From Malacoraja senta (taxonomy: Eukaryota): a stretch of 64,000 bases of DNA. The position numbers were made by a program, and so were the translations under genes. Location of the stretch: contig CM075988.1 of the NCBI GenBank assembly GCA_038087875.1, positions 12,402,001 to 12,466,000 of the forward strand. The letters run 5' to 3'. The notes below the pieces were generated by a model that worked only from the letters and a program-made list of their open reading frames with translations, was not told the DNA's origin and ran no database searches. Below are positions 7,441 to 59,953 of this stretch, in pieces; within the stretch, counting starts at the first letter, position 1; each line of letters opens with the position of its first letter.

Positions 7441-7579
7441 CGTGAAAACCCACACTGTCACAGGGAGAATAAGAAATCCCCACGCACGTTTAATGAAGAG
7501 ATACAGCATGGAAAAAAGGCCCTTCAGCTCACCAAGTCCACAATGACCATCCCGACCAGTTCATGTTTGTTCAATGTTA

Positions 7580-8118
7580 TCAAACTTGGAGAGGTTGCAG
7601 TAGAGGTTTACCAATTGAACTATAGGGTATTAGCTATAAGGAGAGGTAGGTCAAACTTGCATTGTCTTTTTCTGGAATGTAGGAGTTTGAGGCAAGACCT
7701 GAGAGAATGTACAGTACAAAATTACAGGAGGCTTAGATAGGGTAGACAGTCAGAACTTTGAACCCAGTGTGGAAAATATCAAGGACAGGTGGGCATAGAT
7801 TTCTGGTGAGAGGGGCACAGTTTAAAGGTGATGTGCGGAACAAGTTTCTTTTTCATGCTGAGTGGTGGGTGTCAGGAACGTGCTATAAGGAGAGGTTGGA
7901 AAAACTTGGTGCACCGGAGGCTGAGGGGAGACCAGGTAAAAGTTGATAAAGTTATGATAGGATAGATAGCTATAATCTTTTCCTCAGAATGAAAACGTCA
8001 AATCTGGAACAATTCTTTTATGCAGAGAGTAGTAACCTGGAACACATTGCTAGCTATGGTGGTGAGTGGAGAGAAGATGGCATTACTTAAGAGGCTTTTA
8101 GATGGGTACATGGATATA
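7580..8118 (+). mobile_element. Degenerate CR1 fragments; host of the Tc1 insertion
   Basis: gctataaggagagg..., aggctgaggggagacc; the CR1 3' UTR resumes at about 9760-9835. Confidence 0.65.
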
Positions 8119-9757: not shown

Positions 9758-10199
9758 CAATAGGGAATGGTAGCAGTTGATTCATGTGCATGCAGAATGA
9801 TTTACTTTAGTCTGGCATCATGTTCGGTACAGAATTTAGGTTTCCTTTAAAACATACCAGGTGACCTTCTTTACACAGCTGTGTTTAATAAGGCATTGAC
9901 TCATGAATTATCCTTTAGTACTGCTTTGGTCGAGTTCATATGTTTGGATCCTGAATTAAGAATTGAAATAGCTTTAGATGAAAAGTGAAGCAAGCAGATA
10001 TGGAAATCAAGATATATATCTTTTTTTTCTTCAAAGATTCCAAAACCATGAGGGACTAGAATTGTTGTTATTGTTCTGGTTAAATGGCCCAAATAATCTG
10101 TGAAAAAAGATATGAAGAACATTGAATTTGTGAAGCTGAATGGGAGGAGCAGGAGCGGGTAATATTGCCCTGTGAGCCAACTTCTTCATTCAATATGGT

Positions 10200-10740
10200 T
10201 TAAAAAGACACAAAGAGCTGGAGTAGCTCAACAGGTCAGGCAACAAAAGACAGACATAAAAGGCTGGAGTAACTCAGCGGGTCAGGCGGCATCTCTGGAG
10301 AATAGGCATAGGTGACGTTTCGGGTCGAGACCCTTCTTCAGACTGAGAGTCAGGGGAAAAGAGAATGAGAGAAATAGACGGTACTGAGGAGAAATGAATG
10401 GAATTCATGCAAAAGGCTGGTGAGCAGGAGGATTCACAGGGGGGGGGGGGTGCAGCAACAGAGAGTGTTGCAGTACTCTTGACGGAGAGAGGGATACCCC
10501 TCTGGAGAACATGAATAGGTGACGTTTCAGGTTGGGACCCTTCTTCAGTCATGATTATGGATGTGGGGCATGGGGTGAAGACAACTGGAAGAGAGGAGAG
10601 GCAGGACCGAGCACGGCAGGGCGCAGATGAGGGGGAGTTGATAGGCAGATGGATGGAACAAAGGCCAGATATTAAAACAGCATGTGTGGGACAGCGACGG
10701 ATTGAAGAGTTTCAAATTGTGAAGCCAGAGGAAGGAAGGT
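10200..10740 (-). mobile_element. Penelope-derived element with tandem partial terminal repeats
   Basis: Family motif occurs three times (about 10205, 10255, 10500), with hammerhead cores near 10314 and 10521. tatggtt at both flanks. Confidence 0.75.
10314..10341 (-). ncRNA. Minimal type I hammerhead ribozyme motif
   Basis: Minus strand reads CUGAAGA-A-GGGU-CUCG-ACCC-GAAAC-GUC: catalytic boxes, stem II, palindromic ACGU in place of stem III, GUC cleavage triplet. Confidence 0.7.
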
Positions 10741-12557
10741 ATGGTTCATCTGACCTTGGCTTCACTTCCACTCTCCTGCTTGCTGTTTCTCACCCTCATC
10801 CCCACTATAATCCACAATCAGTCATTTAAGCATGAATGTGTTTAAAATATATTTACTTACAGGAATTAAATTACAGTATGATAATATTATGTCTTCTACC
10901 CATTGATATCTTTAAAAGACCAACCTGTGTCCTCTGAAACATTGTCAAACGTCTCCAACCCAGAAATCAACTTGACTACATATGCTTTCACTTCATTGGA
11001 TTGATTAACTAATCGCTTTGCTGTATAATTCAAGGAGAGATCTTACAATAGTGTTTACAATGTCCAGGTTTCTTTTCCCAGAACCATTTTTTTGTACTTA
11101 TTCTCTCTGCATTTCGCTGACAAATCTCTGCATTTCCCCATTGCCTTTTGTTAATGAAATTCTGGCAGTAAGGGCTGTGAAAAGCTGTGCAGTAGCTGCT
11201 AATGATGGTGATTGTAACAGCGTTGTTGTCCACGGGTGTCAGCTGCAGCGGCCCGCGTATTTCAAGGAAAGCAACTAATTTTCATCCGAGTGCTTGTTTT
11301 ATCTCTTGGGATTTGAGTGTTCTGTTCAATCGTTTAGCACATTTGAGAAGCCCATTAAATTGAAGGACTCGGTGGCCAAGTAAGCAGGTTGATCCGTCAA
11401 TTCTAAAATTGTATGATGCATTTTATTTTCATCATTTAGATCATTGCCGTTTCAATAGAGTGTGCTATTTTTGGGAGATGTGTTCAGCTTAACATTTATT
11501 TAGTGGCGTGATGGAAGAATTGATCTCATGAAGTGCCGCATCAAGCTTAATTTCATTGAGTTTCAACATACATAGTGGTGAAAAGGTTACACAAGAAAAT
11601 CCCCAAGAAAAGGGAATGGGAATACTAAAAATGCCAGAATATGAGAAGGTTAATCTGGGAAAGAGATTTATCTTTATATTTGCTTCATTGATATATTTGA
11701 TTAACCCATTGTGCTTTTCATTATATGTGATATATATGTTATAGTGGACCAGCTGTTCTGTACACCTGGTGTGGATTCCTTGACCCAATGCTCACTGGTT
11801 GGTTTCTGGTCCAATGTACGTGAATGGTAACAGCACTATTGTATTTCCGAAGCTTCAGGAGGGAACCATTCCTGCTTATTGATTTCCTGCTCCTTTACAA
11901 ATCAATTTTCTCCTCTGGGAGTGCTTTGAGTAACGTTTCATGTTGAAGTTGCTTGTATTGCAATGGTTTACAGGAAAAGAACTATCAGACAATCTGTTAT
12001 TTTCTCAGACCAAGTCAATTCCTGTTAAGTGACTCTCATGATATACGTGCAATTTTCTCTTTCAATTTTGTTGAGGCATTGTGTTTTTCCAAGCTATTAC
12101 CTTTCTGTTTTCTTTTAATCTTCATTTAGTACTGAAGTTACTTTTTCAAACAAAATCCTTCTCTAACCAATTTGAGTCTTCATGTGCTAATTAACTTTGC
12201 ATCGAGAACTGAACATTTCACGTGCCAGTGGTTTGCTTAAGTGGTGTACAGTTAATTAAAACCGATGATGAAGTTGAAATAGCATACATTTTTAAGATCA
12301 TGGCAAATCCAATTTGCGGACAAGAGGTGGGGCAAATAAAGTAAATAATTGTAGAAACAAGAAGCATTTGACAAATATTTGGTAAAGCGAGATCCCATTT
12401 GTGTCTGGTGCAACATCTTTGGTCTTTGGATGAGATGGCTATCCAGGGAAAACAAAATAAAATTCACACAGAATTAAGGTACAGAAGATAGGGTTTTGTT
12501 ATGTTGGTTGACAAGCAGTGGAAAGGCAGTCTTGGTTATACACCAAAGAGTTTACTG

Positions 12558-12868
12558 TAGTTTAGTTGAGAGATACAGTATGAAAATAGGCCCTTCAGGC
12601 CACCGAGTCTGCGCCGACCAGCAATCCCTGTAGACTAACACTATCCCACGCACACTAGGGACAATTTACAATTTACAATTTACAATTTTACCAAGCCAAT
12701 TCACCTACAAACCTGTACGTCTTTGGAGTGTGGTAGGAAAACTGAGCTCCTGGAGAAAACCCACGCAGCTCATGGGGAGAACATACAAACTCCGTAAAAA
12801 ACAACATTCATAGTCAAGATCAAACTCGGTCTCCAGCTCTGTAAGGCAGCAACCATTGAACCACCTTT
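12558..12868 (-). mobile_element. HE1-type V-SINE with (ACAATTT)4 expansion
   Basis: Family match; repeat at 12661-12687. Confidence 0.85.
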
Positions 12869-13781
12869 TGCTGTTTGCTCTTTTTTCCCCAATGCAATGG
12901 CAGAGGGGCCAGAAATATACTGTATGACATATATTGTAATGGAGGAAGGAAAATAATTTAACTTGGTCTTTTAAATGATAGCAACGTTGAGTTGATAAAG
13001 CAACCTCAAATGACACAGATAAGGGAATAATTATAGCGATGAGTGTGAATGGAAGAGTTATTCTATGGGATAACTGAGCTCAGAGGCTGAACTGCCAGAA
13101 TAAAGAGGAATTTGGCTCGGGTTGAAGATATGCAGGATGAGTCACTCTGCAAACCTAAGGCTGGGCGAGAAAACTAGCACAATGGGCTCGAGAGAGCTTG
13201 ACGTTTTATGCTACGACTTTAAGTGTATCAGTGCAAATTAAAGGACAATGGATGCACAGAAAGCAGTGAGAGATGTTTTAAAAGCTTCAAGTGCACGGGA
13301 GGCTGTTTTAACCTGGCGCATGCTGTGAACTTAATGCCGCAGTGAACTTGGTCTGAACTTTCATGAGGAACATTAACAGTTTTAATATTAGTATCCTACG
13401 GGAACAAAATGCTGTCTATTTAGTTTCTAATTCCTTGAAAGTATTCTTCTGGTATGAATATAGCATAAAGGAAAGAACCATTTTAATGCCTTATTTCTCG
13501 TTATCCTTATTTTTAATCTCCCACCCTGGCAGGAGAGCAAAGAAGCATACCCAGTGAGATATGTGGAGGCATATTGCTAGTTAGCTAAATCTAGGTTTTC
13601 TTTTTCCGTAAACTATTCCCTGGCCCATTCCTGAGAAAGACCTTGTCTTGTCAGGAATTTTAAATGTAAACCTGTCTCCTGCTGTCCACTGATCTATGTT
13701 TGATAAACTAATGTAAAGCACCAAATGGACTGCCGAATAGATGGCTTAGGTAACACCAGTGTCAATCTTCAATCTACTTTG

Positions 13782-13923
13782 AAGTAGACACAAAAAGCTG
13801 GAGTAACTCAGCGAGAGAGGCAGCATCTCTGGAGAGAAGGAAAGGGTGACGTTTCGGGTCGAGACCCTTCTTCGGACTGTTTATCTTTGGTTTAAACCAG
13901 AATTTGCAGCTCCTTTCTACACA
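13782..13923. mobile_element. Penelope-derived hammerhead element with inverted tail
   Basis: Family motif; TSD ttcaatctactttg at 13768-13781 and 13924-13937. Confidence 0.8.
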
Positions 13924-14534
13924 TTCAATCTACTTTGCATTTCTTCAGACATTACTGTCCCGATCTCATATTTGCCAGCATGGGTGGAATTAAATTGTCT
14001 CGCCTGCAGTGCAGTCATGACAATGTACAGAAGATGATAAGTGCCCACAAATTGAAAAATTCATATCACCCAAACTGTACGCGCAGATTTTTTAAAACAC
14101 AAATTGAATATATTACAATTATGACAGTCCAAATTGCACAATTAAAATAAAAACTTATCTACAAATTAGAAAGTAAGGAATTGAAGTAATAACATTTTGG
14201 AATATATGTCATTATAATTTAAAAAACATACAAAAAATGTGATATTTACATCTGGTGGCTGGAATATACCAATGAGTTAACTAAATGCACTAATTTGTAT
14301 ATGAATTTTCTTAGGATTTAATGCTATTTCTCTAATTGTCAATTAACAATCTAGATTATTCATAAACGAGGAATGAATTAGGGTCATAATTCATGCCTTG
14401 CCTGTGTAGATGTAACCAAATACCCCGAATTCAATATTTTTTTAATACATTATCATTGAGCACAATATGCACAAAGGTTAATAAGGTTTGTTAATTTTAT
14501 GCCTCTGGTATATTTGTTCATTTGACTAAACTAC

Positions 14535-14820
14535 TGCCATCCCACCTCTGAATAAGAAGGATTTGAGTCAAACCCTCATCCAGGACTCAAGCACTTAACC
14601 AGTGAGTAAACTGTAGTGAAGGGCAAAAGTGTTAAACTAAAGGTCTGCAGTGTTTTATTGTGTCATTTAAGGAGGATATTCAAGATTCAGTGGCAATATT
14701 CAGAGATTACAGTGTCTGCCATTAACAAATAATTAGAGGAATAGCATTAAACTCTACAAAATGAATAGATCTGACATAAAGACTAATGACCTCACTTAAT
14801 TCTTTGGTATCTCCAAGCCA
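14535..14820 (+). mobile_element. Very degenerate DeuSINE/SacSINE1-like relic
   Basis: cctctgaataagaagg...ccaggactcaagcac...gttaaactaaagg...aagattcagtggcaatatt, loosely parallel to 61705-61965. Confidence 0.35.
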
Positions 14821-15076
14821 TCAGGAATTCAGATGATTGTTGACAACTTCTGTATGTTTTCTTATTTAAGATAATGACATATTTTCTAGAATGTTTAAAC
14901 TTAATACATTTATTTTCTCATTTGCTGATAAAGTTTGCATCTGTGCAATTTGGACTTTCATAATTGTAATATGTGCAACATTTTTTAAAAAGAAATATCA
15001 CTAAATTCCATTGTATGATTTGGGAGCATGTTCAATTTGTGGGTACACATCATTATACACACTGTGTCACCTCACC

Positions 15077-15342
15077 TGGGCAACACAGTGGCGCAGCCTC
15101 ACGGATGCTGGCTATGTGGAGTTTGCACGATCTGCCTGTGCCGCATGGGTTTTCTCCGGGTGCTCTGGTTGCCTCCCACATGGTGGTGGTGGAAGTTGAT
15201 GTTGGGAATGTGTACAAAGGAACTGCAAATGCTGGTGTAAACCAAAGATGGACACAAAATACTGGAGTAACTCAGCGGGTCAGGCAGCATCTCTGGGGAG
15301 AAGGAATGGTGACGTTTTCAGTCGAGACCCTTCTTCAGACTG
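15077..15342. mobile_element. Partial HE1-type SINE (+) followed by a Penelope-derived hammerhead element (-)
   Basis: gggcaacacagtggcgcagc...cctcccaca, then gtacaaaggaactgcaaatgctgg...gagacccttcttcagact. Confidence 0.75.
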
Positions 15343-15749
15343 TTACATTGGGAATGTTAGTACATGAAATGCTTTGTTCAAACCAGGATAGATTGGGTAC
15401 AGTCGGCAAAATCTAACATTGGGAAAGATCGGGTCATCATCTGGGGGAAGTCTGCCGAAATTAGGAGTGGCAAGGTGGATGGAGAAAGCTTCCCTCCTAG
15501 GCCTGGAGAAGTATTTCCCGGACAACAAAAAAGAAATAAGTTCTAAATTTACCCTCCGGGCTTCTTGGGCCCTTATTCTGTCTTTCATCATTTTTTTAAA
15601 TTAACAGTTGGTTTCAATCATAAAACATTGGTTTGGTCACAACTAGAGCATTTGGGGCAGTTGTGCTGGCCAGAGTATAGGAAAGCTGTGGCTGCACTGG
15701 AGAGGGTGCAAAAAAAGTTCAACCAAGATATTGTCTGACTTGGAACATT

Positions 15750-16073
15750 TTAGTTTAGTTTCTAGTTCAGAGATGGAACATGGAAGGTGGCCCTTTGCCT
15801 ACCAAGTCCACACCGACCATTGATCACCCCTTTTCTATGTTATCCCACTTTATTATCCATTTCCTTCACACTAGGGGGAATTTACAGAGGCCAATTATCC
15901 TACAAACCTGTGTGTGTTTGGGATGTGGGGGAAACTGAAGCACCCAGAGGAAATCTGTGCAGTCACAGGGAGAACATGTAAACTCCACACAGACAGCATC
16001 TGAGGTCAGGATCGAACCCTGGTCTCTGGTGATGTGAGGCAGCAGCTCTTCAAGGTGCTTCACTGTGTCACCC
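15750..16073 (-). mobile_element. HE1-type SINE inside a degenerate CR1 fragment (about 15610-16150)
   Basis: SINE family match. CR1 text ggagagggtgcaaaaaaagttcaaccaagat before it and ttatgaggagagattggatag after it. Confidence 0.75.
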
Positions 16074-16539
16074 TAGATTTTAAGTTATGAGGAGAGATTG
16101 GATAGTCTGGCTTTTTCCTGGATCAGAGGAGGCCAAGGGATGATTAACAAGAAATCTATAGATTTATGAGGTGGAACAATAGGGTTGGCCATTCCTTGCA
16201 CAAGCAATCAGATCCATATGTGATATTGTTGCCTATGAAATGTTCGGAGACATTGCCAAGAGGTGACAAGGTGCAACATAAATGAAAGACTGCTCTCACT
16301 GAACAAAATATTTTCAAAAAATAATATTACATCTTTCTTCAGATTTTTTTCTTTAATCTGGACATTTAAAGCAAAGATGTTTAGGGGAAAGAACATCGCC
16401 TTGTAATCTTGTGTGAGAAAGTAAACCTCAAAGGAATCCCTTTGTCAATCTTTTTTTTTCAGTAAAAGCAGTCCCTGCCTTTGCCTGGGAAGCTCAGTTT
16501 AAACTTTATAAGCTTTTAAGGAAATTATTGTCATTAACC

Positions 16540-16822
16540 TAGCGCAGAGTTGCTGCCATACAGCGCCGGAGACCCGGGTTCGATCCTGACTACAAATGCT
16601 GTCTGTACGGAGTTTGTATGTTCTCCTCATGACCTGTGTGGGTTTTCTCTGGATGCTCCATAGATGTACATGTTTCCAGGCTAATTGGCTTGGTAAAATT
16701 GTACAATTGTCTCTAGTGTGTGTTGTTAGTGTGTGTAGGATAGCGTTATTAATGTATGGCGATCATTGGTCGCCGTGGACACGATGGGCCAAAGGGCCTG
16801 TTTCCGCACTGTATCTCTAATT
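16540..16822 (+). mobile_element. HE1-type V-SINE
   Basis: agagttgctgcc...gacccgggttcgatcctgactac...aagggcctgtttccgcactgtatctctaa. Confidence 0.85.
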
Positions 16823-18056
16823 TAAGCCTCCAAGAACTTGAATGTATTCAGCTTTGGCCATCTCTGGACTTTGAAGGTTAAGTTGTGAAATCGATTTGAG
16901 CCATTTCGGTAATTCAATAAACTGGATGTTATACAATTATTTAGATTGAAAAATTTAAGTTATTGGACTACTTAGAAATCCAAATATTCCAGTGTTCACT
17001 TTCTATAATAGCAGATACTGGATGAAAATAAATCCTTTTCAGAAACAGCTCAACTACAAACTGTCCATTGTCAGCCCACAAGGAGCAATAAAATGCACTT
17101 CAGAATCAATGTAAAGCAGTTCTAGCAGTCATAAAGATAAATCTTTGCACACAGAATGATTCTCATAATTACTCTTTATAAAGAAGCACTTGCCCTGTTT
17201 CGGACTCCCACGGGCATTCTTATTGCTATGAATATTTCTGCTCTGCTCGAGAATGTGGGATAATGCCACAAAATGCTCTTAATGATGTTCTGGGTCCAGT
17301 TTCATTCAAAGCAATTATCATTTGCACTATGGTTGGGCAGAAGATTAAGGTGGAGAGCAAAATTGAAAGAGCAAAAATTTCCGACCAATGTTGCTTCATC
17401 TGACCAAATAAATAAGACAGCAATTTTCAGACTAAAATTGTATGTTTATAGGTATTTTGGACCAGGACATTATAAGAGAAATTTGGTGTCATTACTCTGA
17501 TTTGAGACATTGAAACTCATTAAACTAAAACCTGGTTGAATCTCTCCTCAGCAAAAACAAATACAGCTTTTATGGAACAAATTGTTCAACAAAGAGCTTT
17601 TATGCTAATTCTTTACGCAGTTTTGGTGAAATCCAATTGATGTTACTGATTCTGGAATAGGTATTCAGGAGCAGATTTAAATAATTTTCTGATGTTAACT
17701 GCCCTGTTAGTACATCCATTCTTTCGAGATGGATGAAGGTTTATTTGGTCAGTTTTCATCTTTCTCCACCTTAACCTTCTGCCCAAACCATATCCTTCCA
17801 TTTTCAAATATGGGAACACCCCATATTTTTTTTTTTTTTTTTTAATGTAAAACAATGTGCACGAAACAGATAGCAGGTCAGGCAATGTCTATGCAAAGGG
17901 AAACAGTTCATGTTTCTAATCCGTAACCCTTCCTCAAAAATGTTGGTGAAATTATCAGCTAAGAATGTACTATTCTTATTGATAGTCAATATCGAAATAG
18001 ACGCTCAGTGCAAAGTTAGTCATTTTGTTAATTGTGTTAATGGTTTTTTTTTATGT

Positions 18057-18245
18057 GTGGCACAGTGGTAGAGTAGAACTGCTGCCTGACAGTGCCAGAA
18101 AACTTGGTTCGATCCTGAGCATGGGCACTGGTACAGAGTTTGTACGTTCTCCCTATGACTGCTGCGTTTTCTTCAGGTGCTCCGGTTTCCTCCCATGTTC
18201 TAAAGACCTACAGGTTTGTAGGTTAATTGGCTTTGGTAAAAATTG
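18057..18245 (+). mobile_element. HE1-type V-SINE, 3'-truncated
   Basis: Head and V-domain present. Confidence 0.8.
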
Positions 18246-18400
18246 AGGTGGGAACAGTTTCTGCCGAAGGTGGAAAGAGGTGGGATGGAAAGACGTGACC
18301 AGTGGTGGGATTACATTGGAGGCAACAGAAATGTCGGAGAATGATGTGAAACAAATGATGTTGTATGATATCCAGGCAAATAATACCACACTGGAGGGCA
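18246..18400 (-). pseudogene. Penelope-like element ORF relic (RT thumb/linker)
   Basis: Translation HIILRHFCCLQCNPTTGHVFPS resembles the vertebrate Penelope/Poseidon motif II.RHF..LQ.DP....IFP. Confidence 0.55.
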
Positions 18401-18489
18401 TTAGAGAGTGCAAAAGAGAAAATAAACAGTGAAGAATATAGTGTTACAGCTGCAGAGAAATTGCAAGTGAAAAAAGTACAACGACCGCT

Positions 18490-18800
18490 TTGAGTTAGAT
18501 GGGAAGTTTGGGAATTTATCGCCAGCACTTGAGGGTCTGATAATCGTTGGGAATTTGTTGTTTTTGAATCTGATGGTATGTGTTTTCAAGCTGTTAGATC
18601 ATCTGCCCGATGGGAGAGGAGCGTAGACAAAATGAACAGATTATGTGTGGTCCTTGACTATGTTGTCTGCTTTCCCATGGCAACATAAAGTGTAGATGGA
18701 GGCGATTGGAGTGACGATGCTATGGGTGATTGACAAGGCTGCGGTCACAACTGCCTGTAATTTCTTGCAGTCTTGGGCAAATCAGTTGCCAAGGTTACTT
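18490..18800 (-). mobile_element. Rex1/Babar LINE 3' fragment
   Basis: Reverse complement of the I.KD..HP..F..LPSGR..S.K..T.R..N.F region (tgcccgatgggagagg). Confidence 0.55.
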
Positions 18801-19034
18801 TCAACCTTGTTGGACTGAAAAGAAACAAGTTCTTGCATGGAGGTACAAGAGAGACGGTGGAACCTGGAGCAAAAAAATGGATCCGGGTCTTGACCCAGAA
18901 TGTCAAGTGTCCATTTTCTTCCACAGATGCTCGCTGAACCGTCGAGCTCCTCCAGCGACTCTCCTTTTTCTTTGCAATGCAGTACTACTTTCATGTTATA
19001 TAAAAGGCCAGCACTCAAACTTGCATCCCTTATT

Positions 19035-19645
19035 TTAGTTTAGTTTGGAGATACAGAGCAGAAACGGGGCCCTTTGACGCACCGAGTCCGCACCGACCAG
19101 CTATCTCTGCACAATATCACTATCCCACACCACACACTAGGGACGAGTTACAATTTTATCGAAGCCAAACACCCAAAAAACCTGTACGTCTTTGGAATGT
19201 GGGAGGAAACTGAAGTTCTTGTAGAAATCCCACAAAGGTCACGGGGAGAACGTACAAATTCCATACAGAAAGCACCCATAGTTAAGGGCCTGTCCCACTG
19301 TACAAGGTAATTCAAGAGCTCTCCCGAGTTAAAAACAAAAATCAAACTCGTGGTAAGTACATAGATTGTATGTAGCGGGTACGTCGGAGCTCGAGACGTC
19401 TCTTAGCGGCTCGTAACGCTAACGGCAGGTACTCGAGAAACGCGGTAAGCTCGTGAAGATTTTTCAACATGTTGAAAAATGTCCACGAGAGCCCCGAGTA
19501 CCTACGAGCGGCTATTACCGTAATTCTCTGAGTTCGAATCAAGTGAAACTCGGGAGAACTCTTGAATTATCTGGTACAGTGGGACAGGCCCTTTAGGATT
19601 GAACCCTGGTCTCTGGCACTGGAAGGCAGCAACTCTATCACTGCA
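19035..19645 (-). mobile_element. HE1-type V-SINE split by a MITE
   Basis: SINE text ...gcacccatagtta | ggattgaaccc... rejoins across 19285-19595. Confidence 0.85.
19285..19592. mobile_element. MITE, PIF/Harbinger-type (308 bp)
   Basis: 46-bp TIR AGGGCCTGTCCCACTGTAC...CCCGAGTT with 3 mismatches; TTA TSD at 19282-19284 and 19593-19595; no ORF. Confidence 0.85.
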
Positions 19646-19924
19646 CCACCATGCTGCCCACAATCTCATTGAGATTTGTGACCATCTGCAAGCTCCAAAC
19701 CAGTTTCACATGCACACTTCGACTTCTTTGTCTCTGGAGGTTAATGCCTTGGCCATTTCTGGCCTCAGGATCATTCCAGGCTGTCAACTCTGATCTCCGC
19801 ACCTCTTGTATTTCACTGCTAGATGATGGAGGTCACTCGGACTCCATGCTCAAGGAGCAGCCACTTCATTGCTTTTGTTTTGTTGCACAGGAACAACCAG
19901 AGTGGGTCTGCTGCTTTTTTTTCT

Positions 19925-20205
19925 TTAGTTTATCTGTGGAGATACAGTGCGGAAACAGGCCCTTCGCCCCATCGGGTCAGTGCCAACTAGCGATCCCCAT
20001 TACACACTAACACTATCCTCCACATTAGGGACAATGTACAATCTTTACTGAAGCCAATTAACCTCTTTGTCTTTGGAGTGTGGGAGGAAATTGGAGCATC
20101 CAGGGAAAACAACGCTGTCATGGAGAACAAAGAAACTCAGTACAGAGAATCTGGGTCGCTGTCGCAGTAAGGCAGCAACTCTACTGCGGCACCATTATGC
20201 CGCCC
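19925..20205 (-). mobile_element. HE1-type V-SINE
   Basis: Family match. Confidence 0.8.
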
Positions 20206-20585
20206 CCGTACCACTGTGGCTTATGCCACCGTGCTGCATTGTTTGTTTCTCCAAAGCGCAGGCTTTCAGAGTCTTCATTCATGTCTTTAGATCAGCCTTA
20301 CAGGTTCTCCATGTTTTCCTTGCACAAAGAACATGTCACCTGCAGGTACTGTTCTTCATAGGCAGCTGCAAGAGAAATCAATAGAGAGGGGAGATAAATG
20401 AAAAATGTGACAGCAATGTTCTGTGAACATTGCAATTGAAGATCTCAAACTCCATAGGGCCTTCACATCACATTGGTAAAGCCTTTAGAAGGTAGTAATG
20501 GAGTTTCTGCGGATGCAGATTCAGGTTCATTTGAGTAGAATACACATTGAGAATCCTGATTTATTAAGTTTGCTGTTTCAGGAAA

Positions 20586-20964
20586 TTCAAGATTCAAGAG
20601 AGTTTATTGTCATGTGTCCCAGATAGGACAATGAAATTCTTGCTTTGCTTCAGCACAACATAATATAGAAGGCATGAATACAGAACCGATCAGTGTGTCC
20701 ATATACCATTGTATAAATATATACACACATGAATGAATAAAACAGATAAAGTGCAAATAAACAGATAAAGGGCTATTAATGTTCAGTTTTGTTTGAGTTG
20801 AGTTCAATAGCCTGATGGCTGTGGGGAAGTAGCTGTTTCTGAACCTGGACGTTGCAGTCTTCAGGCTCCTGTACCTTCTACCTGAAGGTAACGGGGAGAT
20901 GAGTGTGTGGCCAGGATGGTATGGGTCCTTGATGATGCTGCCAGCCTTTTTGAGGCAGCGACTG
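20586..20964 (-). mobile_element. Rex1/Babar LINE 3' end
   Basis: Reverse complement gives ...AGSIIKDPYHPGHTLISPLPSGRRYRSLKTATSRFRNSYFPTAIRLLN, then 3' UTR and (tcttgaa)n tail. Confidence 0.8.
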
Positions 20965-21237
20965 TTATGTTATTGCCCACTCTATTTCATTACACTTTGC
21001 AACTACAATTTATTGAATGCTAATGCAATCAGATTTTATATGGCAAACAAGAAGTTGCTGTTTTGGGCTTGTTGCCTACATATTTTCCAAGCAAAAGACA
21101 ATAAGGGGTTTGCACAGAAAACTATGTGAAATCAAGAATCTTCTGATGGACAAGATAATTTTGTTCTGTAGCTGAATATGCCAGGATAATAACCCAGCGT
21201 TGCATGATGAAGCTTATAAAAAGTTTCACACAAAATT

Positions 21238-27049: not shown

Positions 27050-30000
27050 ATAAAAATGTTATTATAGGAGGAGACTTTAACTGTATTTAGATAAATCTAG
27101 CCAAAAACAGAGAGGTAATACGAAATCTAAAACTAGTGAACTCTTAAATACTTATATAAATAATACCAATATAACAGATGTTTGGAGAATTGCTAATCCG
27201 ACTGGCAGGGAATACTCGTTTATTCAATGGTACACAAAACATACTCACGTATAGATTATTTCCTGCTGGATACAAAATTAATCCCTCACACTGTGAACCC
27301 AATATACCATACCAACTCGATTTCAGACCATTCACCACTAACTTTCTTTTTAAAACTGGAAGGAATGTCAAAGAACAAATTGTCTTGGAGGTTCAATTCT
27401 CAAATCCTAAAAGACCCGCAAGGGAGTATATATTTAAAAAAACAAATGGACGTCTTTTTTGAAATAAATGACACTCCAGATATATCGCCTACTTTATTAT
27501 TGGAATCTTTTAAAGCATTTATTAGAGGTGTTATAATCTCATACCAAGCTTTTCAAAATAAAAAGAATAAGAATGAACAAAGACAGTTAGAAGAACAAAT
27601 TAGACAACTGGATATAGATAATGCTAAAGATCCATCTATGGATAAACATAATAAAATAATAATTCTGAAATTTAAATTAAATAAATTATTATCAGCCAAA
27701 CTTATAAGACTTTTCCAAATTACAAGACAGGAACACTTTGAATTTGGGGATAAACCACACAAACTTTTGGTTCGTCAGCTAAAAAAACGAGAAAAAGAAC
27801 ATACGATTCAAAAGATTAAATCAGATAGAGGGGAATCACTAACTTTACCGAATGATATTAATAAAAGATTTGCGCAATTTTATGAGAATTTGTATACATC
27901 TAAAACGACAATGGACACCAATAAAATTACAGAGTTCCTGGATAACTGTAATCTTCCAAAGTTAGAGTTGAAGGAACAAGAGGAATTGGGTGCACAAATT
28001 TCAATCAAGGAATTAGAAGACACAATAAGTTCATTAAAGAATGGAAAAACTCCAGGTCCTGACGGATTTACTGATGAATTTTATAAAGGTTTTTATGACA
28101 AAATTATATCATGGTTACAAAAAATGTATCAATGTGCCTTTAAAGAACAAGTATTACCTGATACATTAGCTGAATCAACGATCACATTAATACTAAAAAA
28201 AGACAAAGATATAGAAGAACCGGGTTCATATAGAGCTATAGGATTGTTAAATAAAGATAAAAAAATATTAGCGAAAACATTAGCTAGAAGATTAAGTAAA
28301 TATATTAGTAAATTAATAAACCCAGATCAGACGGGGTTTATCCCTAAGAGATATTCATCTAATAATATAATAATTATACATTTTATTTATATAGCGCTTT
28401 TCAAGGACTCAAAGTCACTTATGAGATGACTACTCAATATAATGCACTCACACAAAATCGAAGAACAAGAATTATCAATTATTTCGTTGGACGCTGAAAA
28501 AGCATTTGATCAAGTAGAATGGAATTATATGGATAAAGTATTACAAAAATTCCAATTGGGAGAGAATTTTATTTTATGGATTAAATTATTATATAATAAG
28601 CCTACAGCTAGAATATTAACTGATAACATATTATCTTCGAAATTCCAACTATCAAGGGTTAACAGACAAGGATGCTCATTATCACCGCAGTTATTTGCTC
28701 TTATAATTGAACCTTTGGCGGAAAAAATTAGAACACATCCAGATATCCACGGCTATAACACTAAATATTCAAATAATAAAATATCTTTAAACGCGGATGA
28801 TATATTATTGTACATCACAAAACCTCAAATTACTATACCAAACATACTAAATCTAATCGAGGACTTTGGATCCTTTTCTGGATACAGAATAAATTGGAAT
28901 AAAAGTGAAATTATGTCAATAAAACCGAAAGACCCAACACATCTCTTAAAATTCCCTTTTAAAATAGCTACAGAAAAATTTAAATACTTGGGTATTGAAA
29001 TTACCAGAACATATCAAGGCATGTTCAAAGCAAATTATAATCCTCTACTTAATAAATTAAATACTTTAATTAAATTTTGGAAAGTGCTTCCGATGTCTTT
29101 AATAGGCCGAATAAATGCAATTAAAATGATCTTTTTACCACAAATTTTATACCTATTTCAATCAATTCCTATATATCTACCAAAGAAGTTAAAACAAAAA
29201 TTGGATTCAGTCATTACTAATTTTATATGGGATTATAAATCCCATAGAATACAAAGAACACATTTGAACAAAGCTAAAGTATTAGGGGGCTTAGCACTCC
29301 CTAACTTTATGTATTATTATTGGTCAGTAAATATTAAAAATATGATTCAACTGATGGACAACTCTGCCCAGCAGGTGGACTGGATTGTAATGGAGAGAGA
29401 AGACTGCTCCTCTTGTAATATTGGAGCGATCCTCCTCTCACCAATGAAACTGAATAACATAAATTATAACAAAAAAACAATTATACATAGTACAATTAGA
29501 ACTTGGAAACAAATAAAACAAAATTTAAAATTAAGAAATCTATCGCTTTTATCCCCAATAGTTAATAACCCTTCGTTTAATCCCTCTATTACAGACAAAT
29601 CATTTATACAATGGGATAGACTAGGAATTAAAACGTTCGGAGACTTGTATGAAACTGGAAAATTACTATCATTCCAACAATTACAAATAAAATATAAGCT
29701 GGGAAATAATCAATTCTTTAAATATTTTCAAATATGTGATTATCTGAAAAAATATACAAAAGATCATTATAACATCCCACCAGATGTACTGGACGAAGCA
29801 ATGCAGATAAAAGCTGAATCAGCAAACTTAATATTGTATTTGTATAATATTATCTTAAATGTAGAAATACCAACTACGGAGGGTATTAGAAGAGACTGGG
29901 AACAAGAATTAGATATTAAAATTTCAAAGGAAAGGTGGAATGAACATTTATTAAATGTGCATAAATGCTCGATTAATGTAAGACACACTTTAATACAATT

Positions 30001-30459
30001 CAAAATTTTACACAGATTATATTATTCAAAAACTAAAATTAATAAAATTTCCCCAATGTATCATCTATTTGCGATAAATGTCAATCTCAAAAAGCTACTA
30101 TAGCGCACTCATTTGTTTTTTGTTCAAAAATTCAAAAATTTTGGATTTAAATTTTTGAAATCTTTACAAAATTATTTAATATAAATCTGACACCAAAAGC
30201 AGAATGGATTATCTTCGGAACAACGGAAGATAGCCCTGAACTAAATGTGTTTCAAAAGAAATTAGTTGATTACGGATTAATAACTGGAAAAAAGCTTATC
30301 ATAAAATTCTGGAAAAACACTCCAATACCAACTATAAACATGTGGATTTCAAATATGTTTGAAACATTACACCTAGAAGAGATAAGACTCCTCCCGGCAG
30401 GCAAATCAGATCACTTCCATCTGACGTGGTCTGCATTTATAGAACTATTACAAGCATAA
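27050..30459 (+). pseudogene. L1 ORF2 (endonuclease-reverse transcriptase), disrupted
   Basis: ORFs 27227-28429 and 28442-30103 share one frame separated by a single TGA (MR*LLN). YADD reads NADD. Frameshifts near 27100-27230 and 30050; C-terminal piece at 30247-30459. Confidence 0.92.
28367..28420 (-). mobile_element. 54-nt L2-type 3' tail inserted in L1 ORF2
   Basis: Reverse complement aagtgactttgagtccttgaaaagcgctatataaataaaatgtataattattat. Removing it restores RYSSNN-MR(R)LLNIMHS. Confidence 0.7.
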
Positions 30460-42642: not shown

Positions 42643-42792
42643 TTGTAGGAAAGAACTGCAGATGCTGGTTTAAATTGAAGGTAGACACAAAATGCTGGAG
42701 TAACTCAGCGGGAGAGAGAAGGAATGGGTGACATTTCGGGTCTCGACCCGAAGCATCACCCATACCTTCTCTCCAGAGATGCTGCCTGTCAC
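42643..42792. mobile_element. Penelope-derived fold-back element
   Basis: Symmetry centre cgggtctcgacccg; TSD tctcaaaactaatt at 42629-42642 and 42793-42806. Confidence 0.8.
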
Positions 42793-42809
42793 TCTCAAAA
42801 CTAATTGTT

Positions 42810-43025: not shown

Positions 43026-43607
43026 AATTTAAATACAATGAAGCATAGCTCAATATCATTATTACTAATATTTACATCTTCATATTAGTATGATGTTAGT
43101 CCAGCTATGATAATGCTGTATCATGAGTAAATGTGCCCCTATGCAGAACTACAATGACATTCAAATTCACTTCATGTTGTCTTAAAATTGCTGATATATG
43201 GAGCCTTTGCAGGTTGCCACCCAAGCATTTTACTTGAGTGTTTCTCCATGCACAGCCCTAGATGGGTAATTTTGGGGAGCAATTCAGCATGAGACAGCAT
43301 TGAAAAGCCTCAACTAGATGAAACACCTTGTCTAAGTTCAAGATGGAATCAGTAGATCGTAGCGGACGCGGAGTTGTCCTTTAAAGAACGAGGCAGACAT
43401 GAAGTTTGTCCGAAATACTGGTTCTTCATTACTACACTAATTCTCCTCACTCACCAACCCTGTGCGCACGCGATTAACCCTTAAATACTCCCCAGGGGCA
43501 CCCGTGATCAAACCGTGACCCTATCTCTCGTCACCGGGCCACGTGACCCCCAAAGAGCCGAAGGTTATGTACATTGTGTGGCCCATCACCCACTGCCGCC
43601 ACATTTA

Positions 43608-43621
43608 CCCCCCCCCCCCCC
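43608..43621 (-). other. Polypurine tract (G14)
   Basis: Lies 4 nt upstream of the 3' LTR on the minus strand. Confidence 0.85.
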
Positions 43622-43754
43622 AGAACCGGAGGCACAAAAACGGATGGGAGCCGAAAGAGGCGGCCGGACCTCGTACGTACGTCCCCACGCAAAGGTTTAT
43701 TTTCTGGTAAGGATGAACTAGGTGGGACCCGAGATGGCGGACGCCCTCGATGGC

Positions 43755-43788
43755 AAGGCTGCGTGTTCAAATCACGTCGGGGTCACCA
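43755..43788 (-). other. Primer-binding site complementary to the tRNA-Trp 3' end
   Basis: Minus strand TGGTGACCCCGACGTGATTTGAACACGCAGCCTT, 2 nt after the 5' LTR. Confidence 0.9.
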
Positions 43789-44777
43789 AATGTAGCGGAC
43801 GCGGAGTTGTCCGTTAAAGAACGAGGCAGACACAAAGTTTGTCCGAAATACTGGTTCTTTATTACTACACTAATTCTCCTCACTCACCAACCCTGTGCGC
43901 GTGCGCGATTAACCCTTAAATACTCCCCAGGGGCACCATTGACCAAACCGTGACCCCTATCTCTCATCACCAGGACACGTGACCCCCCAAATAACCGAAG
44001 GTTATGTACAGTGCGTGGCCCATCACCCAGTGCCGCCACAAGATAGCAAATGGTTGCAAATGACAGTTAATGGGAATATCTGACTAATATTCATTCCCAC
44101 CCAGGGAACTGAACCTGTTTCGATACCACTTTTATCTGAACTTATAGACATGAATAAAGTATGTAATTATGGAGAATGGAACTTGGGACAATAAGATCGG
44201 CTCAGTTTTCAGCATGGAACGCACAATTATATTTGAGCAGCCACATGTTCTTCACTGTGTCTATTATTTAGTGAACCCTATGTTTGTCTTCCTACACTAC
44301 GTTTAGTATGTTCCAATAAAAATATTTTATTCGCGACAAAGGATGAAATCAAAATTCTCCTGTTTCAGCAAGGCAGTTTTGTTTCTGAAGAGACAGTATT
44401 GTGTGTTTTGCTGCTTTTTATTGGAATGACTATGTCAAATCAAATTCCTCATATGTTGCAAATAAAGTATAATTGTGATTGTGATTATGATTAGTTTTAC
44501 GCTTGACAGTAAACAGCAGAGAGGTTATTTTAACTGAAGCCACTAGCAGGACATTGGTCAGGTGCCTGTTGCCCACAAAAAAAGGCTTGGAGAATGTGTG
44601 TGCATACCCTCATGGACATTTTCAAAGTGGGCCTTTACTGGCTATTTCTCCCAACCAACATTTCCACTGTTTGTTCCCACCTGATCTTCACACTGTTCTG
44701 CTGATTTGAGCAGAGTGGAATAATTGCACTTGTTCCATTGACCCACTGCTGCCTGCTATGCGAATGAATCCGTCTTA

Positions 44778-45070
44778 TGTCATAGAGGCATACAGCATAA
44801 AAACAGGCCATTCAGTCCAACATGCCCATGCTGACCAAGATTCCCCATCCTCATTAGTCCCAATTACCCCTATTCGCATTTGGCCCATATCCCTCTAACA
44901 CGCTCCTATCCATGTACCTGTCCAAATACAGACACAAAAAGCTGGAGTAACTCAGTGGGACAGGCAGCATCTCTGGAGAAAAGGAATTGGTGACATTTCG
45001 GGTCGTGACCCTTCTTCAGACTGAAAGTCATGGGAAAGGGAAACAAGAGATATATGTCCAAATGTCTTTT
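44778..45070 (-). mobile_element. CR1 3' tail with a Penelope-derived insert (44928-45054)
   Basis: TSD tgtccaaat at 44919-44927 and 45055-45063. Confidence 0.75.
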
Positions 45071-50969: not shown

Positions 50970-51420
50970 ACATGTTGGCCTTCATCGGATGGGGCATTGA
51001 ACACAAGAGTTGGAACATCATACCCCAGCTCTGTAGAAGTTGGCGAGACCACACTGGGAATATTGTATACGTTTCAGGACACCATACAGTCAGAAGGATG
51101 TGAGGAAGCCAGAAAGACCACAGAAAAGATTCATGGCGATGTTGCTCATGGGTCTGATGGCTTGAGGAGAGATTGGATAGCTTGCAGCTTTTTTTCCCTG
51201 GACCGATGGAAGCTATGGAGTGACCTTATAGAGGTTCATAAAATCATGAGGAACATAGAGAAGGTTGATGGTCGCAGTCTGTGACTGAGGTTAGAGTAGT
51301 GTAAAACTGGAGGGGATAGATTTAACATGAAATGGGTCCAGAGAGGCAAGTTTTTCACACACAAGTTGGAGAGTATTCAGAACAGCTGCCAGAGCAAGTG
51401 GTAGAGACTGGAACAATTAT
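50970..51420 (+). mobile_element. Older CR1 fragment
   Basis: atgttggccttcatc...gagaccacactgg...gtgaccttatagaggttcataaaatcatg. Confidence 0.7.
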
Positions 51421-51429
51421 ATCAATTAT

Positions 51430-52333
51430 AGCTGTGAGGAGGATGCTAGGAGACTGCAAGGTGACTTGGATAGGCTGGGTGAGTGGGCAAATGTTTGGCA
51501 GATGCAGTATAATGTGGATAAATGTGAGGTTATCCACTTTGGTGGCAAAAACAGGAAAGCAGACTATTATCTAAATGGTGGCCGATTAGGAAATGGGGAG
51601 ATGCAGCGAGACCTGGGTGTCATGGTACACCAGTCATTGAAAGTAGGCATGCAGGTGCAGCAGGCAGTGACGAAAGCGAATGGTATGTTGGCCTTCATAG
51701 CAAGAGGATTTGAGTATAGGAGCAGGGAGGTTCTACTGCGGTTGTACAGGGTCTTGGTGAGACCACACCTGGAGTATTGTGTACAGTTTTGGTCTCCAAA
51801 TCTGAGGAAGGACATTATAGCCATAGAGGGAGTGCAGAGAAGGTTCACCAAACTGATTCCTGGGATGTCAGGACTTTCATATGAAGAAAGACTGGATAGA
51901 CTTGGCTTATACTCGCTGGAATTTAGGAGATTGAGAGGGGATCTTATAGAAACGTACAAAATTCTTATGGGCTTGGACAGGCTAGATGCAGGAAGATTGT
52001 TCCCGATGTTGGGGAAGTCCAGGACAAGGGGTCACAGCTTAAGGATAAGGGGGAAATCCTTTAAGACCGAGATGAGGAAAAACTTTTTCACACAGAGAGT
52101 GGTGAATCTCTGGAACTCTCTGCCACAGAGGGTAGTTGAGGCCAGTTCATTGGCTATATTTAAGAGGGAGTTAGATGTGGCCCTTGTGGCTAAATGGATC
52201 AGGGGGTATGGAGAGAAGGCAGGTACGGGATACTGAGTTGGATGATCAGCCATGATCATATTGAATGGCGGTGCAGGCTCGAAGGGCCGAATGGCCTACT
52301 CCTGCACCTATTTTCTATGTATCTATGTATCTA
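51430..52333 (+). mobile_element. Young 5'-truncated CR1 (HER1-like) LINE; ORF2 C-terminus open for 256+ codons
   Basis: ORF 51466-52236 WQMQYNVDKCEVIHFG...RPHLEYCVQFWSP...VVNLWNSLP; 3' UTR; (ctatgtat)n tail. Confidence 0.95.
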
Positions 52334-57700: not shown

Positions 57701-58644
57701 ATTAACCTTTATCCCTCTTGAATAGAAATACCTGATAATTATGTTGCCAAATTCTTCCTGAAGAGACCTTTTTACTCCCCTTTCACATTCCTCAATGCCA
57801 ATTACGATAAGAACAAAGTTGATCTTGCACTGTGATAAAATATTGAGACTAGGAATACTTACCCACTGTGGTTTGCACTGAGAGTGAGAAAAGAGCATCT
57901 GGCAAGCTGCTTGTAAGAGCCTTTGGGGCAGCAAATCAGTCTTTGTGGCAGCAGATTTACTGTTCCAGAGAAAAACAGTTGACATGACTGTGCACCATGT
58001 GTAATCCTACTTGCACTGATGGATGAGAACATTGCATCCCACTCTGCTGACAAAGTGATTGATTTCACCAATGTTGTGGTCACCTTCCCTTCACAGCAAT
58101 CTTACTGCATATTTGATATTGGCACTGAGCCACATTATGTCCTGCACAAAAGCCATATATATATTGCTTGAGAGTTAAAAACAACAAAGACAATAACAAC
58201 TGTCTGGAAGAGATGGTTGGCACTGTTTTTCTAAATACACCACTGGTCTTACACCACTGATACAGTGGTATTCGTACACCTGATTCTGGTACAACAAAGC
58301 TCCTCCTGCATGGAAGGGGAGGGGTTGCTGCTAAAGGCGACGGACTGCGTGTTTGTGTTGGCCGCAGGTTGTGGTGTTTGTGGAGGTAGCCGTGAGAGGC
58401 CCCACAGCAGCCGGTCGAGCAAGTGACTTCAGCGCAGCCTGTAGCAGCTCCATGTAATGGCAGTGGAAAGAGCCGACGGCATCACGCTGGGCCAGGTCAA
58501 CCCCTGCTTCTTCGATTCAATGCCACCTGGACATCAGGCTCTAAAGTGAAAGATGAAATATTGCGAATCACCTTAAAACAAGATTAGACTTTTCAGAGAC
58601 TTGAAAGATACAGGTACGGACTTGAAGATCTGTTGGTATGGTAC

Positions 58645-58786
58645 GCACACAATTCTGGAGTAACTCAGCGGGACAGGCAGCATCTCAACAGAGAAGGAAT
58701 GGGTGACGTTTCGGGTCGAGATCCTTCTCCAGACTGATGTCAGGGGAGTGGGCGGGACAGAGGTAGAATGTAGTCGGAGACTGTAA
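58645..58786 (-). mobile_element. Penelope-derived hammerhead element, cut by a MITE
   Basis: Family motif, continuing gatgtcagggg...gtagtcggagactgtaa as in 63085-63400. Confidence 0.75.
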
Positions 58787-58990
58787 AGGGCCTGTCCCAC
58801 TTGGCCGTCATTCGCACGCCATTTACGCGACCTGCTAGCGTGTGGGTAGCGTGTGGGTAGCGCAGGATGGGCGCATGGAGTGGTGGGGAGGAGTGTGGAG
58901 TGGAGAGGAGGAGTGTACACTTCATCCTGCATGAAATCTTCACGCGCCACCGGCCTGTCGCGTAACTGACGGCCAAAGTGGGACAGGCCC
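58787..58990. mobile_element. MITE, PIF/Harbinger-type (about 204 bp)
   Basis: TAA|AGGGCCTGTCCCACTTGGCCGTCA...TGACGGCCAAAGTGGGACAGGCCC. Confidence 0.75.
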
Positions 58991-59134
58991 AAGACCCTGG
59001 CACGGCACAACGTCTCACCACCAACAGCAGCAGAAGCAGGCAAACGATCGCTGAGCTCGGCCTGGGGCTCACGGCCGTTACAGATCCGGATCCACCCCCA
59101 CTCCTACTCCCAGAGCGGGGCCACGACAATTGGA

Positions 59135-59232
59135 GATAGACACAAAATGCTGGAGTAACTCAGCGGGACCGGCAGCATCTCTGGAGAGAAGCAATGGGTG
59201 ACCTTTACGGGTCGAGACCCTTCTTCAGACTG
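59135..59232 (-). mobile_element. Penelope-derived hammerhead element
   Basis: Family motif. Confidence 0.75.
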
Positions 59233-59251
59233 ATTTTTTTCTGTATCATAT

Positions 59252-59600
59252 CTCCGCCCGCACTGCGACCTAACATCGAGGAACTGGAGGCCTTTGCTGG
59301 AGAACGACTTCAGGAGCTCCAACCGCGGGAGCCTGCGGACTTTAACACCGTGGAGCTCGAGGTCTCTGGTTAGAGATCAACTTCGGGAGCTTCAGGTGTT
59401 TTGAGCGCCCCGACTCAGGCGCTTCGATCGCCCCGACGTTGGAGCTTCAATCGCCCGTTGCGGGGGTTCGGACTGCCGGCTGCGGGAGTTTTGATCGCCC
59501 TGACGGATGGTTCGACTGCCCCGACCACGGGAGAAAAATGAGGGAAGAAGTTAGACTTTATTGCCTTCCGTCACAGGGAGGAATGTGGGGCATCGCTGCG
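59252..59600. repeat. CpG-rich repeat-like segment with about 21-bp subrepeats
   Basis: ggagcttc.atcgcccc(gac) variants recur across 59385-59525. Confidence 0.5.
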
Positions 59601-59953
59601 CAACATTACTGCTGCACCATTGTGCCACCACTGTGCTGGCATTCACTTGCACAAATGCTAAACTATCGGGCATGCATCTTTCATCAGTCAGTTCCCCAAA
59701 TACACGAGGGCTGAGGATGCAATGTGGGACTGGCAACTAACAAGGGGAAATCGAGACATGCACCAGTCACAAACTAATTGTCACGTTGCAAAAGCTCAGG
59801 AGGAATCAATATCTTAGCTCGTAACTATAGTTTCCCTGGCGTACATATCTCAGAAGAATAAATTAGTAAATTGGATCATCACAGGTGATTGAAATCAAAG
59901 AAAATACTTAAAAATAAACTGCACTGTAGATCAAACACAAGAAAAACTGAAAA

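What the first reader, a model, noticed from the sequence alone, without database searches (positions are those of the whole stretch)
43354..44044. Complete TRIM-like miniature LTR retrotransposon in a vertebrate
Seen: two LTRs of 246 and 250 bp (about 92% identical by eye), a 4-bp AGAT TSD, PBS, G14 PPT, LTR-internal TATTTAA and AATAAA on the minus strand, and only 187 bp of interior. Known: TRIMs are described mainly in plants, with few animal reports. Inference: all cis signals for trans-mobilisation by a Gypsy helper are retained, so this may represent an undescribed chondrichthyan TRIM family.
Basis: partly seen in the sequence, partly recalled or inferred. Interest (0 to 1): 0.7.

Follow-up and report, generated by a model that had tools for sequence, protein, structure and literature searches.

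The report
Retrotransposon shrunk by primer read-through
A tiny gene-less jumping element in a fish-like genome looks like a one-off copying error of an ordinary retrotransposon, in which the enzyme copied too much of its tRNA primer and skipped nearly all the genes, an error known from defective HIV-1 but here fixed in the germ line; there is no sign so far that it spread as its own family.

Summary
The 683-bp element is real: two LTRs (93% identical), AGAT target duplication, tRNA-Trp primer site, G14 PPT. The primer site runs on to 34 nt, matching mature tRNA-Trp positions 43-76. It is joined through a 6-7-nt shared stretch to the last ~45 codons of a pol-like frame. In contigs of four public runs the LTR family is multi-copy, but 10 of 10 listed pieces that reach this junction leave the window's sequence: relatives have a 15-18-nt primer site and a longer interior. 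Extra primer-tRNA sequence at a deletion junction is the signature of delayed plus-strand transfer, described in HIV-1 (PMC12657518). Best reading: a CsRn1-like Gypsy copy born short during reverse transcription, inserted normally, and probably not amplified. Copy number of the short form is untested (no genome held; 32 of 2306 pieces listed). Vertebrate TRIMs are already published (PMC10886601). The scan noted a related read-through fossil, without target duplication, in another genome.

The parts
43354..43357 (.). target-site duplication AGAT (left)
43358..43603 (-). 3' LTR, 246 bp; starts TGT, ends ACG (terminal CA mutated); TATTTAA at 43481-43487; poly(A) signal mutated to AATGAA at 43425-43430
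43608..43621 (-). polypurine tract, 14 G, followed by a 4-nt spacer (43604-43607) before the 3' LTR
43622..43754 (-). 133-bp remnant of the parent's 3' internal region, open frame with TRSGR motif, read as the end of pol/integrase
   Evidence: frame; relative P0002, E 2.8e-6 library-wide, 59% identity over 51 aa; many diverged contigs cover it; integrase identity is a lead only (no Pfam hit)
43755..43761 (-). 6-7-nt stretch shared by tRNA-Trp positions 49-43 and the parent's pol-like end: proposed acceptor site of the strand transfer
   Evidence: tRNA identity reaches 43755 (57 of 57 matches); family contigs from the PPT side match to 43760/43761 (7 of 7 listed pieces)
43762..43770 (-). 9 nt found only in the tRNA (positions 58-50): read-through copy of the primer past A58 and T54
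   Evidence: covered by none of the 32 listed contig pieces
43771..43788 (-). canonical 18-nt primer-binding site, complementary to tRNA-Trp(CCA) positions 76-59 including the CCA end; 2-nt spacer to the LTR (43789-43790)
   Evidence: family contigs from the LTR side match down to 43771 or 43774 (3 of 3 listed pieces)
43791..44040 (-). 5' LTR, 250 bp, TGT...ACA; TATTTAA at 43916-43922; AATAAA at 43858-43863
   Evidence: 22-27 contigs per run end at 43791 in unrelated flanks
44041..44044 (.). target-site duplication AGAT (right); this LTR/flank junction is shared by other organisms
   Evidence: table 8 records 8, 16, 24, 32

Best explanation
A copy of an ordinary multi-copy Gypsy family (CsRn1-like: tRNA-Trp primer, 4-bp TSD) that was born short during reverse transcription. 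Plus-strand strong-stop synthesis did not halt at m1A58 of the primer but copied tRNA-Trp to about position 43-44. The over-long DNA end could not finish at the PBS and instead paired through 6-7 nt with the minus strand about 150 nt upstream of the PPT. This skipped leader, gag and nearly all of pol while leaving both LTR ends intact, so the family's integrase inserted it with a normal TSD. It then decayed in place and most likely stayed single or low copy. Shown: anatomy, 34-nt tRNA match, breakpoints against relatives, multi-copy LTR, shared insertion junction. Inferred: the strand-transfer event, the modification read-through, the clade of the parent, the lack of amplification.
For: 43755-43785 is identical to the 3' 31 nt of eukaryotic tRNA-Trp genes (52 of 54 loci called tRNA-Trp by ARAGORN; identity stops at 43755 in 57 of 57 matches) and continues with CCA, 34 nt in all. 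In run X16, 11 contigs match from 43755 upward and continue like tRNA-Trp genes. Relatives break from the window on both sides of the 9 tRNA-only bases: 7 of 7 listed pieces from the PPT side at 43760/43761, 3 of 3 from the LTR side at 43771/43774; loose ends agree (6 contigs in X15 and 6 in X5 behind 43761; 7 in X15 before 43774). The loose end behind 43761 reads by eye as an open frame like P0002's LDL...QVA stretch just upstream of the part shared with the window. Chance of the 9 tRNA-only bases 4e-6; of a 6-7-nt overlap at a random junction 1.3e-3 to 4e-4. The same signature is described in HIV-1: 44 proviral sequences with primer-tRNA inserts of 7-54 nt defining the deletion junction, LTRs intact (PMC12657518, passages); m1A58 as the strong-stop site (PMC8599865, passages).
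Against: Only 32 of 2306 contig pieces and 24 of 420 loose ends were listed. The window's own copy should cross the junction in the host-like run X15 and is not listed, so short junction-crossing contigs are invisible and a small family cannot be excluded. Summed depth over 43744-43789 is 8-62 times the flank and mixes tRNA genes, PBS copies and pol ends, so it cannot be resolved. No full-length parent was recovered (empty). The pol-like remnant has no Pfam hit. A subfamily with a naturally long PBS could hide among unlisted pieces. The seventh shared base may be tRNA-derived or a CpG change.
Confidence: 0.68

Rival explanations
1. An amplified TRIM family: same birth by primer read-through, but the short element was then re-mobilised in trans, so this is one of several dispersed copies with a 34-nt primer site.
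For: LTRs, PBS and PPT are present. The helper family is multi-copy. The listing is blind to short contigs, and depth over the junction bins is well above the flank. TRIMs are thought to arise by internal deletion of full elements (PMC4717578, passages) and exist in fishes.
Against: 0 of 32 listed pieces cover 43762-43770, while 10 of 10 that reach it diverge, with 15-25 substitutions each, i.e. many different long-interior copies. The leader is lost and the 3' LTR poly(A) signal is mutated. No second copy in the window.
Confidence: 0.16
2. The parent subfamily already had a 34-nt extended primer site, and the deletion arose by microhomology between that extension and the pol end, either by a minus-strand template switch or by DNA repair after insertion.
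For: The 6-7-nt overlap fits any microhomology-driven deletion. Most loose ends were not listed.
Against: All 3 listed LTR-side pieces and a 7-contig loose end stop matching at 43771-43774, the canonical 15-18 nt. No paper with the phrase 'extended primer binding site' and retrotransposon was found (one phrase search).
Confidence: 0.1
3. Ordinary post-insertion deletion of a full-length Gypsy copy, with the tRNA-like bases being chance or a captured filler.
For: The insertion is old (K2P 0.073) and shared by other organisms, leaving time for deletion; the orthologous interiors were not seen.
Against: Nine bases that exactly continue the element's own primer tRNA, in register with the PBS, have a chance of 4e-6; genomic repair has no reason to extend the PBS along the primer.
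Confidence: 0.04
4. The parent is an endogenous retrovirus or another LTR group rather than a Gypsy.
For: tRNA-Trp priming is used by RSV; 4-bp TSDs also occur in class I ERVs (recalled); one atlas cluster near P0002 carries MLVIN_C in 14% of members.
Against: The coding remnant runs straight into the PPT with no env; Trp PBS plus 4-bp TSD plus TGT...ACA is the CsRn1 combination; other atlas leads are Integrase_p58_C and SH3_Tf2-1.
Confidence: 0.02

Closest known systems
HIV-1 proviruses from aberrant (delayed) second-strand transfer (Hardy et al. 2025, PMC12657518; passages read)
   Same: Intact LTRs; PBS followed by further primer-tRNA sequence past position 58; the tRNA insert defines a large deletion junction; insert length here (16 nt beyond the 18) lies within their 7-54 nt.
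   Different: Here a Gypsy-type retrotransposon primed by tRNA-Trp, in the germ line, old (LTRs 7% diverged) and with the insertion junction shared by related organisms; the deletion is nearly complete, giving TRIM size.
TRIMs (Gao et al. 2016, PMC4717578, passages; Kojima 2024, PMC10886601, introduction and passages)
   Same: Under 1000 bp, two LTRs, PBS, PPT, TSD, derived by internal deletion from an autonomous element.
   Different: No second complete copy shown; interior is primer-tRNA copy plus a pol-like remnant; the rice example in Gao et al. breaks at a 25-bp duplicated internal sequence, not at a tRNA read-through.
Helenus TRIMs of coelacanth, sturgeon, paddlefish and ostariophysan fishes (PMC10886601 section 3.3)
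   Same: Vertebrate, miniature, 4-bp TSD, Gypsy-dependent, contains tRNA sequence.
   Different: Helenus has tRNA-derived sequence inside the LTRs and vertebrate members prime with His, Leu or Lys; here the LTRs have no tRNA part and the extra tRNA is an antisense extension of the Trp PBS.
CsRn1 clade of Ty3/Gypsy (CsRn1, PwRn1, AgCR; PMC2582038, passages)
   Same: tRNA-Trp PBS, 4-bp TSD, TGT...ACA LTR ends, PPT next to the 3' LTR.
   Different: Gag (CHCC motif) and RT are deleted here, so clade membership of the parent could not be tested.

Membership tests
TRIM (Gao 2016 / Kojima 2024) | under 1000-1500 bp, no gaps, two LTRs with PBS and PPT between them, TSD | tested here: met
   683 bp, no N, all parts present
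TRIM (Gao 2016) | [quoted passage not shown] | tested here: inconclusive
   No second short copy seen; 22-27 contigs per run end the LTR in unrelated flanks, but solo and full-length copies and their TSDs cannot be told apart; no genome held
TRIM (Gao 2016) | no retrotransposon protein sequence in the element | tested here: inconclusive
   133-bp open remnant matches unannotated P0002 (E 2.8e-6); no Pfam hit; integrase C-terminus is an atlas lead only
   0 of 32 listed pieces cross the junction, 10 of 10 that reach it diverge; 2274 pieces not listed
Helenus / TRIMp3 | tRNA- or 5S-derived Pol III promoter inside the LTRs | tested here: not met
   No tRNA or 5S match in Rfam at E up to 10; ARAGORN 0 genes; longest tRNA-Trp/LTR match 7 nt and no B-box pattern
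CsRn1 clade Gypsy (parent) | tRNA-Trp PBS | tested here: met
CsRn1 clade Gypsy (parent) | 4-bp TSD and TGT...ACA termini | tested here: met
   AGAT; 5' LTR TGT...ACA, 3' LTR TGT...ACG
CsRn1 clade Gypsy (parent) | CHCC Gag motif and RT phylogeny | not testable with these tools
   Genes deleted; no full-length parent recovered
Delayed second-strand transfer products (PMC12657518) | PBS followed by further primer-tRNA nucleotides beyond position 58, absent from the parent | tested here: met
   16 nt beyond the 18-nt PBS; relatives stop at 43771/43774 in 3 of 3 listed pieces
Delayed second-strand transfer products (PMC12657518) | the tRNA insert defines a deletion junction to a downstream site; LTRs intact | tested here: met
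   7 of 7 listed PPT-side pieces leave at 43760/43761; both LTRs full length
Delayed second-strand transfer products (PMC12657518) | deletion present from the moment of integration | not testable with these tools
   Orthologous interiors in other organisms not seen; the single laying call was used

The most novel reading that the evidence does not exclude
A cartilaginous-fish TRIM family founded in one step by primer read-through and then amplified in trans while keeping a 34-nt tRNA-Trp primer site. That would show a direct mechanistic route by which TRIMs are born, recognisable by an extended PBS at the deletion junction, and that such an element can be packaged without the parent's leader.
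Probability: 0.15. Interest if true: 0.72.

Novelty: new variant of a known kind. Interest (0 to 1): 0.44.

Why it matters
TRIMs are thought to come from internal deletions of full elements, but how the deletion happens is seldom readable. Here the junction records it: primer tRNA copied past its m1A58 stop and a mis-aimed plus-strand jump produce a complete LTR-PBS-PPT-LTR unit with a correct TSD in one round. That error class is described for HIV-1 in somatic cells; my searches (open-access library only) found no report of it as a germ-line fossil of a Gypsy element or as a source of TRIM-shaped elements. It gives a cheap test for any genome: count miniature LTR elements whose PBS extends along the primer tRNA. 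It also warns that TRIM shape alone does not show a family. As a single dead copy it is a neat fossil, not a new system.

Tried and rejected
No whole genome is held, so the direct copy search was impossible. Window-wide blastn found no further copy. Searches for a full-length parent protein found nothing: window peptide against longer proteins (0 of 46 candidates), P0002 against longer (0 of 272) and near lengths (only itself among 18), P0002 in viral contigs (0 of 19 pattern hits confirmed). P0001, the top phmmer hit, is a repetitive protein with no credible family and was set aside as spurious. The junction pattern had 0 matches in viral contigs and 0 of 57 metagenome matches of the tRNA part carried the window's upstream bases; both are uninformative, since host DNA is not expected there. 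Summed contig depth (LTR median 65-195 times flank; interior bins 8-98 times) was not used as copy number: the tool warns against it and overlapping contigs inflate it. The uncovered 43762-43770 in the listed pieces is not proof of absence. PBS-plus-interior RNA folds no better than shuffles (z +1.38). Helenus membership rejected. Absolute dating rejected: only a per-generation rate for one shark was found (PMC10587355, passages) and the host is unverified. PMC12471100, PMC13570524 and PMC9278108 (passages) added nothing on this mechanism; Pulsinelli and Temin 1991 was seen only as a title in a reference list. No supplements were read; the Helenus Table S1 and Repbase could list relevant chondrichthyan families that I could not see.

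Full report
Observation. The element lies at 43358-44040 on the minus strand, between two AGAT copies. The LTRs are 250 and 246 bp, match at 229 of 250 columns, with 17 substitutions and 4 gap columns (K2P 0.073). There is no other copy in the window and no genome is held. The host group is not named by any tool; 'cartilaginous fish' rests on recalled repeat motifs.

The interior has five parts. Next to the 5' LTR are a 2-nt spacer and an 18-nt PBS like the tRNA-Trp PBS of RSV (a weak match). The tRNA match does not stop there. A scan of metagenome contigs with 43755-43785 gave 54 loci; ARAGORN calls tRNA-Trp in 52 of them, and in 57 of 57 matches identity to the window ends exactly at 43755. 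With the CCA end this is 34 nt, tRNA positions 43-76: acceptor strand, whole T arm and variable loop. After it come 133 bp of open frame with a TRSGR motif, then the PPT. This frame matches the unannotated protein P0002 (E 2.8e-6 for the library, 59% identity over 51 residues). Pfam names neither. An atlas search links P0002 to integrase C-terminal families at lead level only (scores 0.93 with MLVIN_C in 14% of members, 0.88 Integrase_p58_C, 0.80 SH3_Tf2-1). Reading it as the end of pol is therefore an inference, supported by position and by recall of Gypsy integrase tails.

Relatives. Twenty runs of eight coded organisms hold part of the stretch. I laid contigs of four, one each of organisms E, A, F and C, on 43560-44220 at 85% likeness. 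The LTR is multi-copy: 25, 27, 25 and 22 contigs end at 43791 in unrelated flanks. [quoted passage not shown] So the insertion predates the split of these organisms, in line with 7% LTR divergence. These records do not show what interior the orthologues carry.

The junction. Of 32 listed pieces (2274 not listed), 7 reach the junction from the PPT side with letters to spare, and all 7 stop matching at 43760 or 43761 and continue for 17-217 other letters; an eighth ends at 43750 at its own end and was left out as uninformative. Three reach it from the LTR side and all stop at 43771 or 43774, which is a 15-18-nt PBS. None covers 43762-43770. Loose ends agree: 6 contigs in X15 and 6 in X5 behind 43761, 7 in X15 before 43774, and 11 in X16 before 43755 that continue like tRNA-Trp genes. 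The loose end behind 43761 reads by eye as an open frame like P0002's LDL...QVA stretch just upstream of the shared part. So the ordinary family has a normal PBS and a longer interior. The window copy has 9 bases that only the tRNA supplies and 6-7 bases shared by tRNA and pol end. Chance values are 4e-6 and 1.3e-3 to 4e-4.

Mechanism. Plus-strand strong-stop DNA normally ends one base before m1A58 of the primer, with position 54 as a second stop (PMC8599865, passages). Hardy et al. describe HIV-1 proviruses in which transfer was delayed, the tRNA was copied further, and the strand landed downstream: one own sequence plus 43 from GenBank, inserts of 7-54 nt defining the deletion junction, LTRs intact (PMC12657518, passages). 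The window element has this anatomy. I infer that a CsRn1-like Gypsy (Trp PBS and 4-bp TSD; PMC2582038, passages) read its primer to position 43-44, paired by 6-7 nt about 150 nt upstream of the PPT, and was integrated with both ends intact. Deletion after insertion would not extend the PBS along the primer. Confidence 0.68, including the 'little or no amplification' part.

Against this reading. The listing is partial, and the window's own copy, which should cross the junction in the host-like run X15, is not listed; two window alleles (43992, 43994) also have no depth in X15. Short junction-crossing contigs are thus invisible, and a small TRIM family or a subfamily with a long PBS is not excluded. 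Depth over the junction bins is 8-62 times the flank but mixes tRNA genes, PBS copies and pol ends. No full-length parent was found.

Comparison with what is known. By shape it is a TRIM (PMC10886601 introduction). By the copy criterion of Gao et al. the test is inconclusive (PMC4717578, passages). TRIMs in vertebrates are not new: Helenus occurs in coelacanth, sturgeon, paddlefish, zebrafish and relatives (section 3.3); 'shark' does not occur in that paper's main text, and its supplement was not read. This element is not Helenus: its LTRs hold no tRNA part. It works like the HIV-1 delayed-transfer products and meets two of their three features, the third being untestable here. Five literature searches found no report of this signature in a germ-line Gypsy element or at the origin of a TRIM; the library is open-access only. 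The scan's notes hold no look-alike of this DNA, but include an over-extended strong-stop fossil without TSD in another genome and a diatom TRIM with an extended PBS. I saw both after noting my reading and checked neither.

Verdict. A real feature, and a new variant of a known kind: a germ-line fossil of primer read-through that yields TRIM architecture in one step. Interest 0.44. If the short form proves to be amplified (probability about 0.15), interest would be about 0.72.

Noticed in passing
window 43358-44040: The element keeps its CpGs: GC 54.5%, CpG observed/expected 0.95 against 0.38 for the window; only 2 of 620 other 683-bp windows reach that value, despite 7% LTR divergence.
   Followed up: partly
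run X16, joint 43789 to 43755: One contig holds the tRNA-Trp 3' part twice with 27 other letters between, a tandem of the same 34-nt stretch elsewhere in organism F.
   Followed up: no
run X16, joints 43770-43926 and 43771-43955: Two contigs switch to the opposite strand of the LTR right at the end of the canonical PBS; these may be other strand-transfer errors of the same family.
   Followed up: no
43606-43651: Depth rises to 5,600-21,000 in three of the four runs just upstream of the PPT and many contigs leave at 43642-43649, suggesting further subfamilies that share the PPT-proximal end.
   Followed up: no
window 27197-30103 (+): Non-LTR retrotransposon ORF split by one stop into 410 and 557 codons; both parts hit RVT_1.
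   Followed up: partly
window 8665-9294 (-): Tc1-type transposase fragment, Pfam HTH_Tnp_Tc3_2.
   Followed up: partly
window 51331-52236 (+) and 6640-7008 (+): Frames resembling the C-terminal part of a CR1/L2-type LINE ORF2 (recalled; no Pfam hit for the first).
   Followed up: no
window 58200-59900: Second CpG-rich region, containing what looks by eye like a small element with terminal inverted repeats near 58790-58990.
   Followed up: no
window 42683-42795 and 44930-45011: Copies of a short dispersed repeat with an internal palindrome flank the element on both sides; recalled as common in skate and ray sequences.
   Followed up: no
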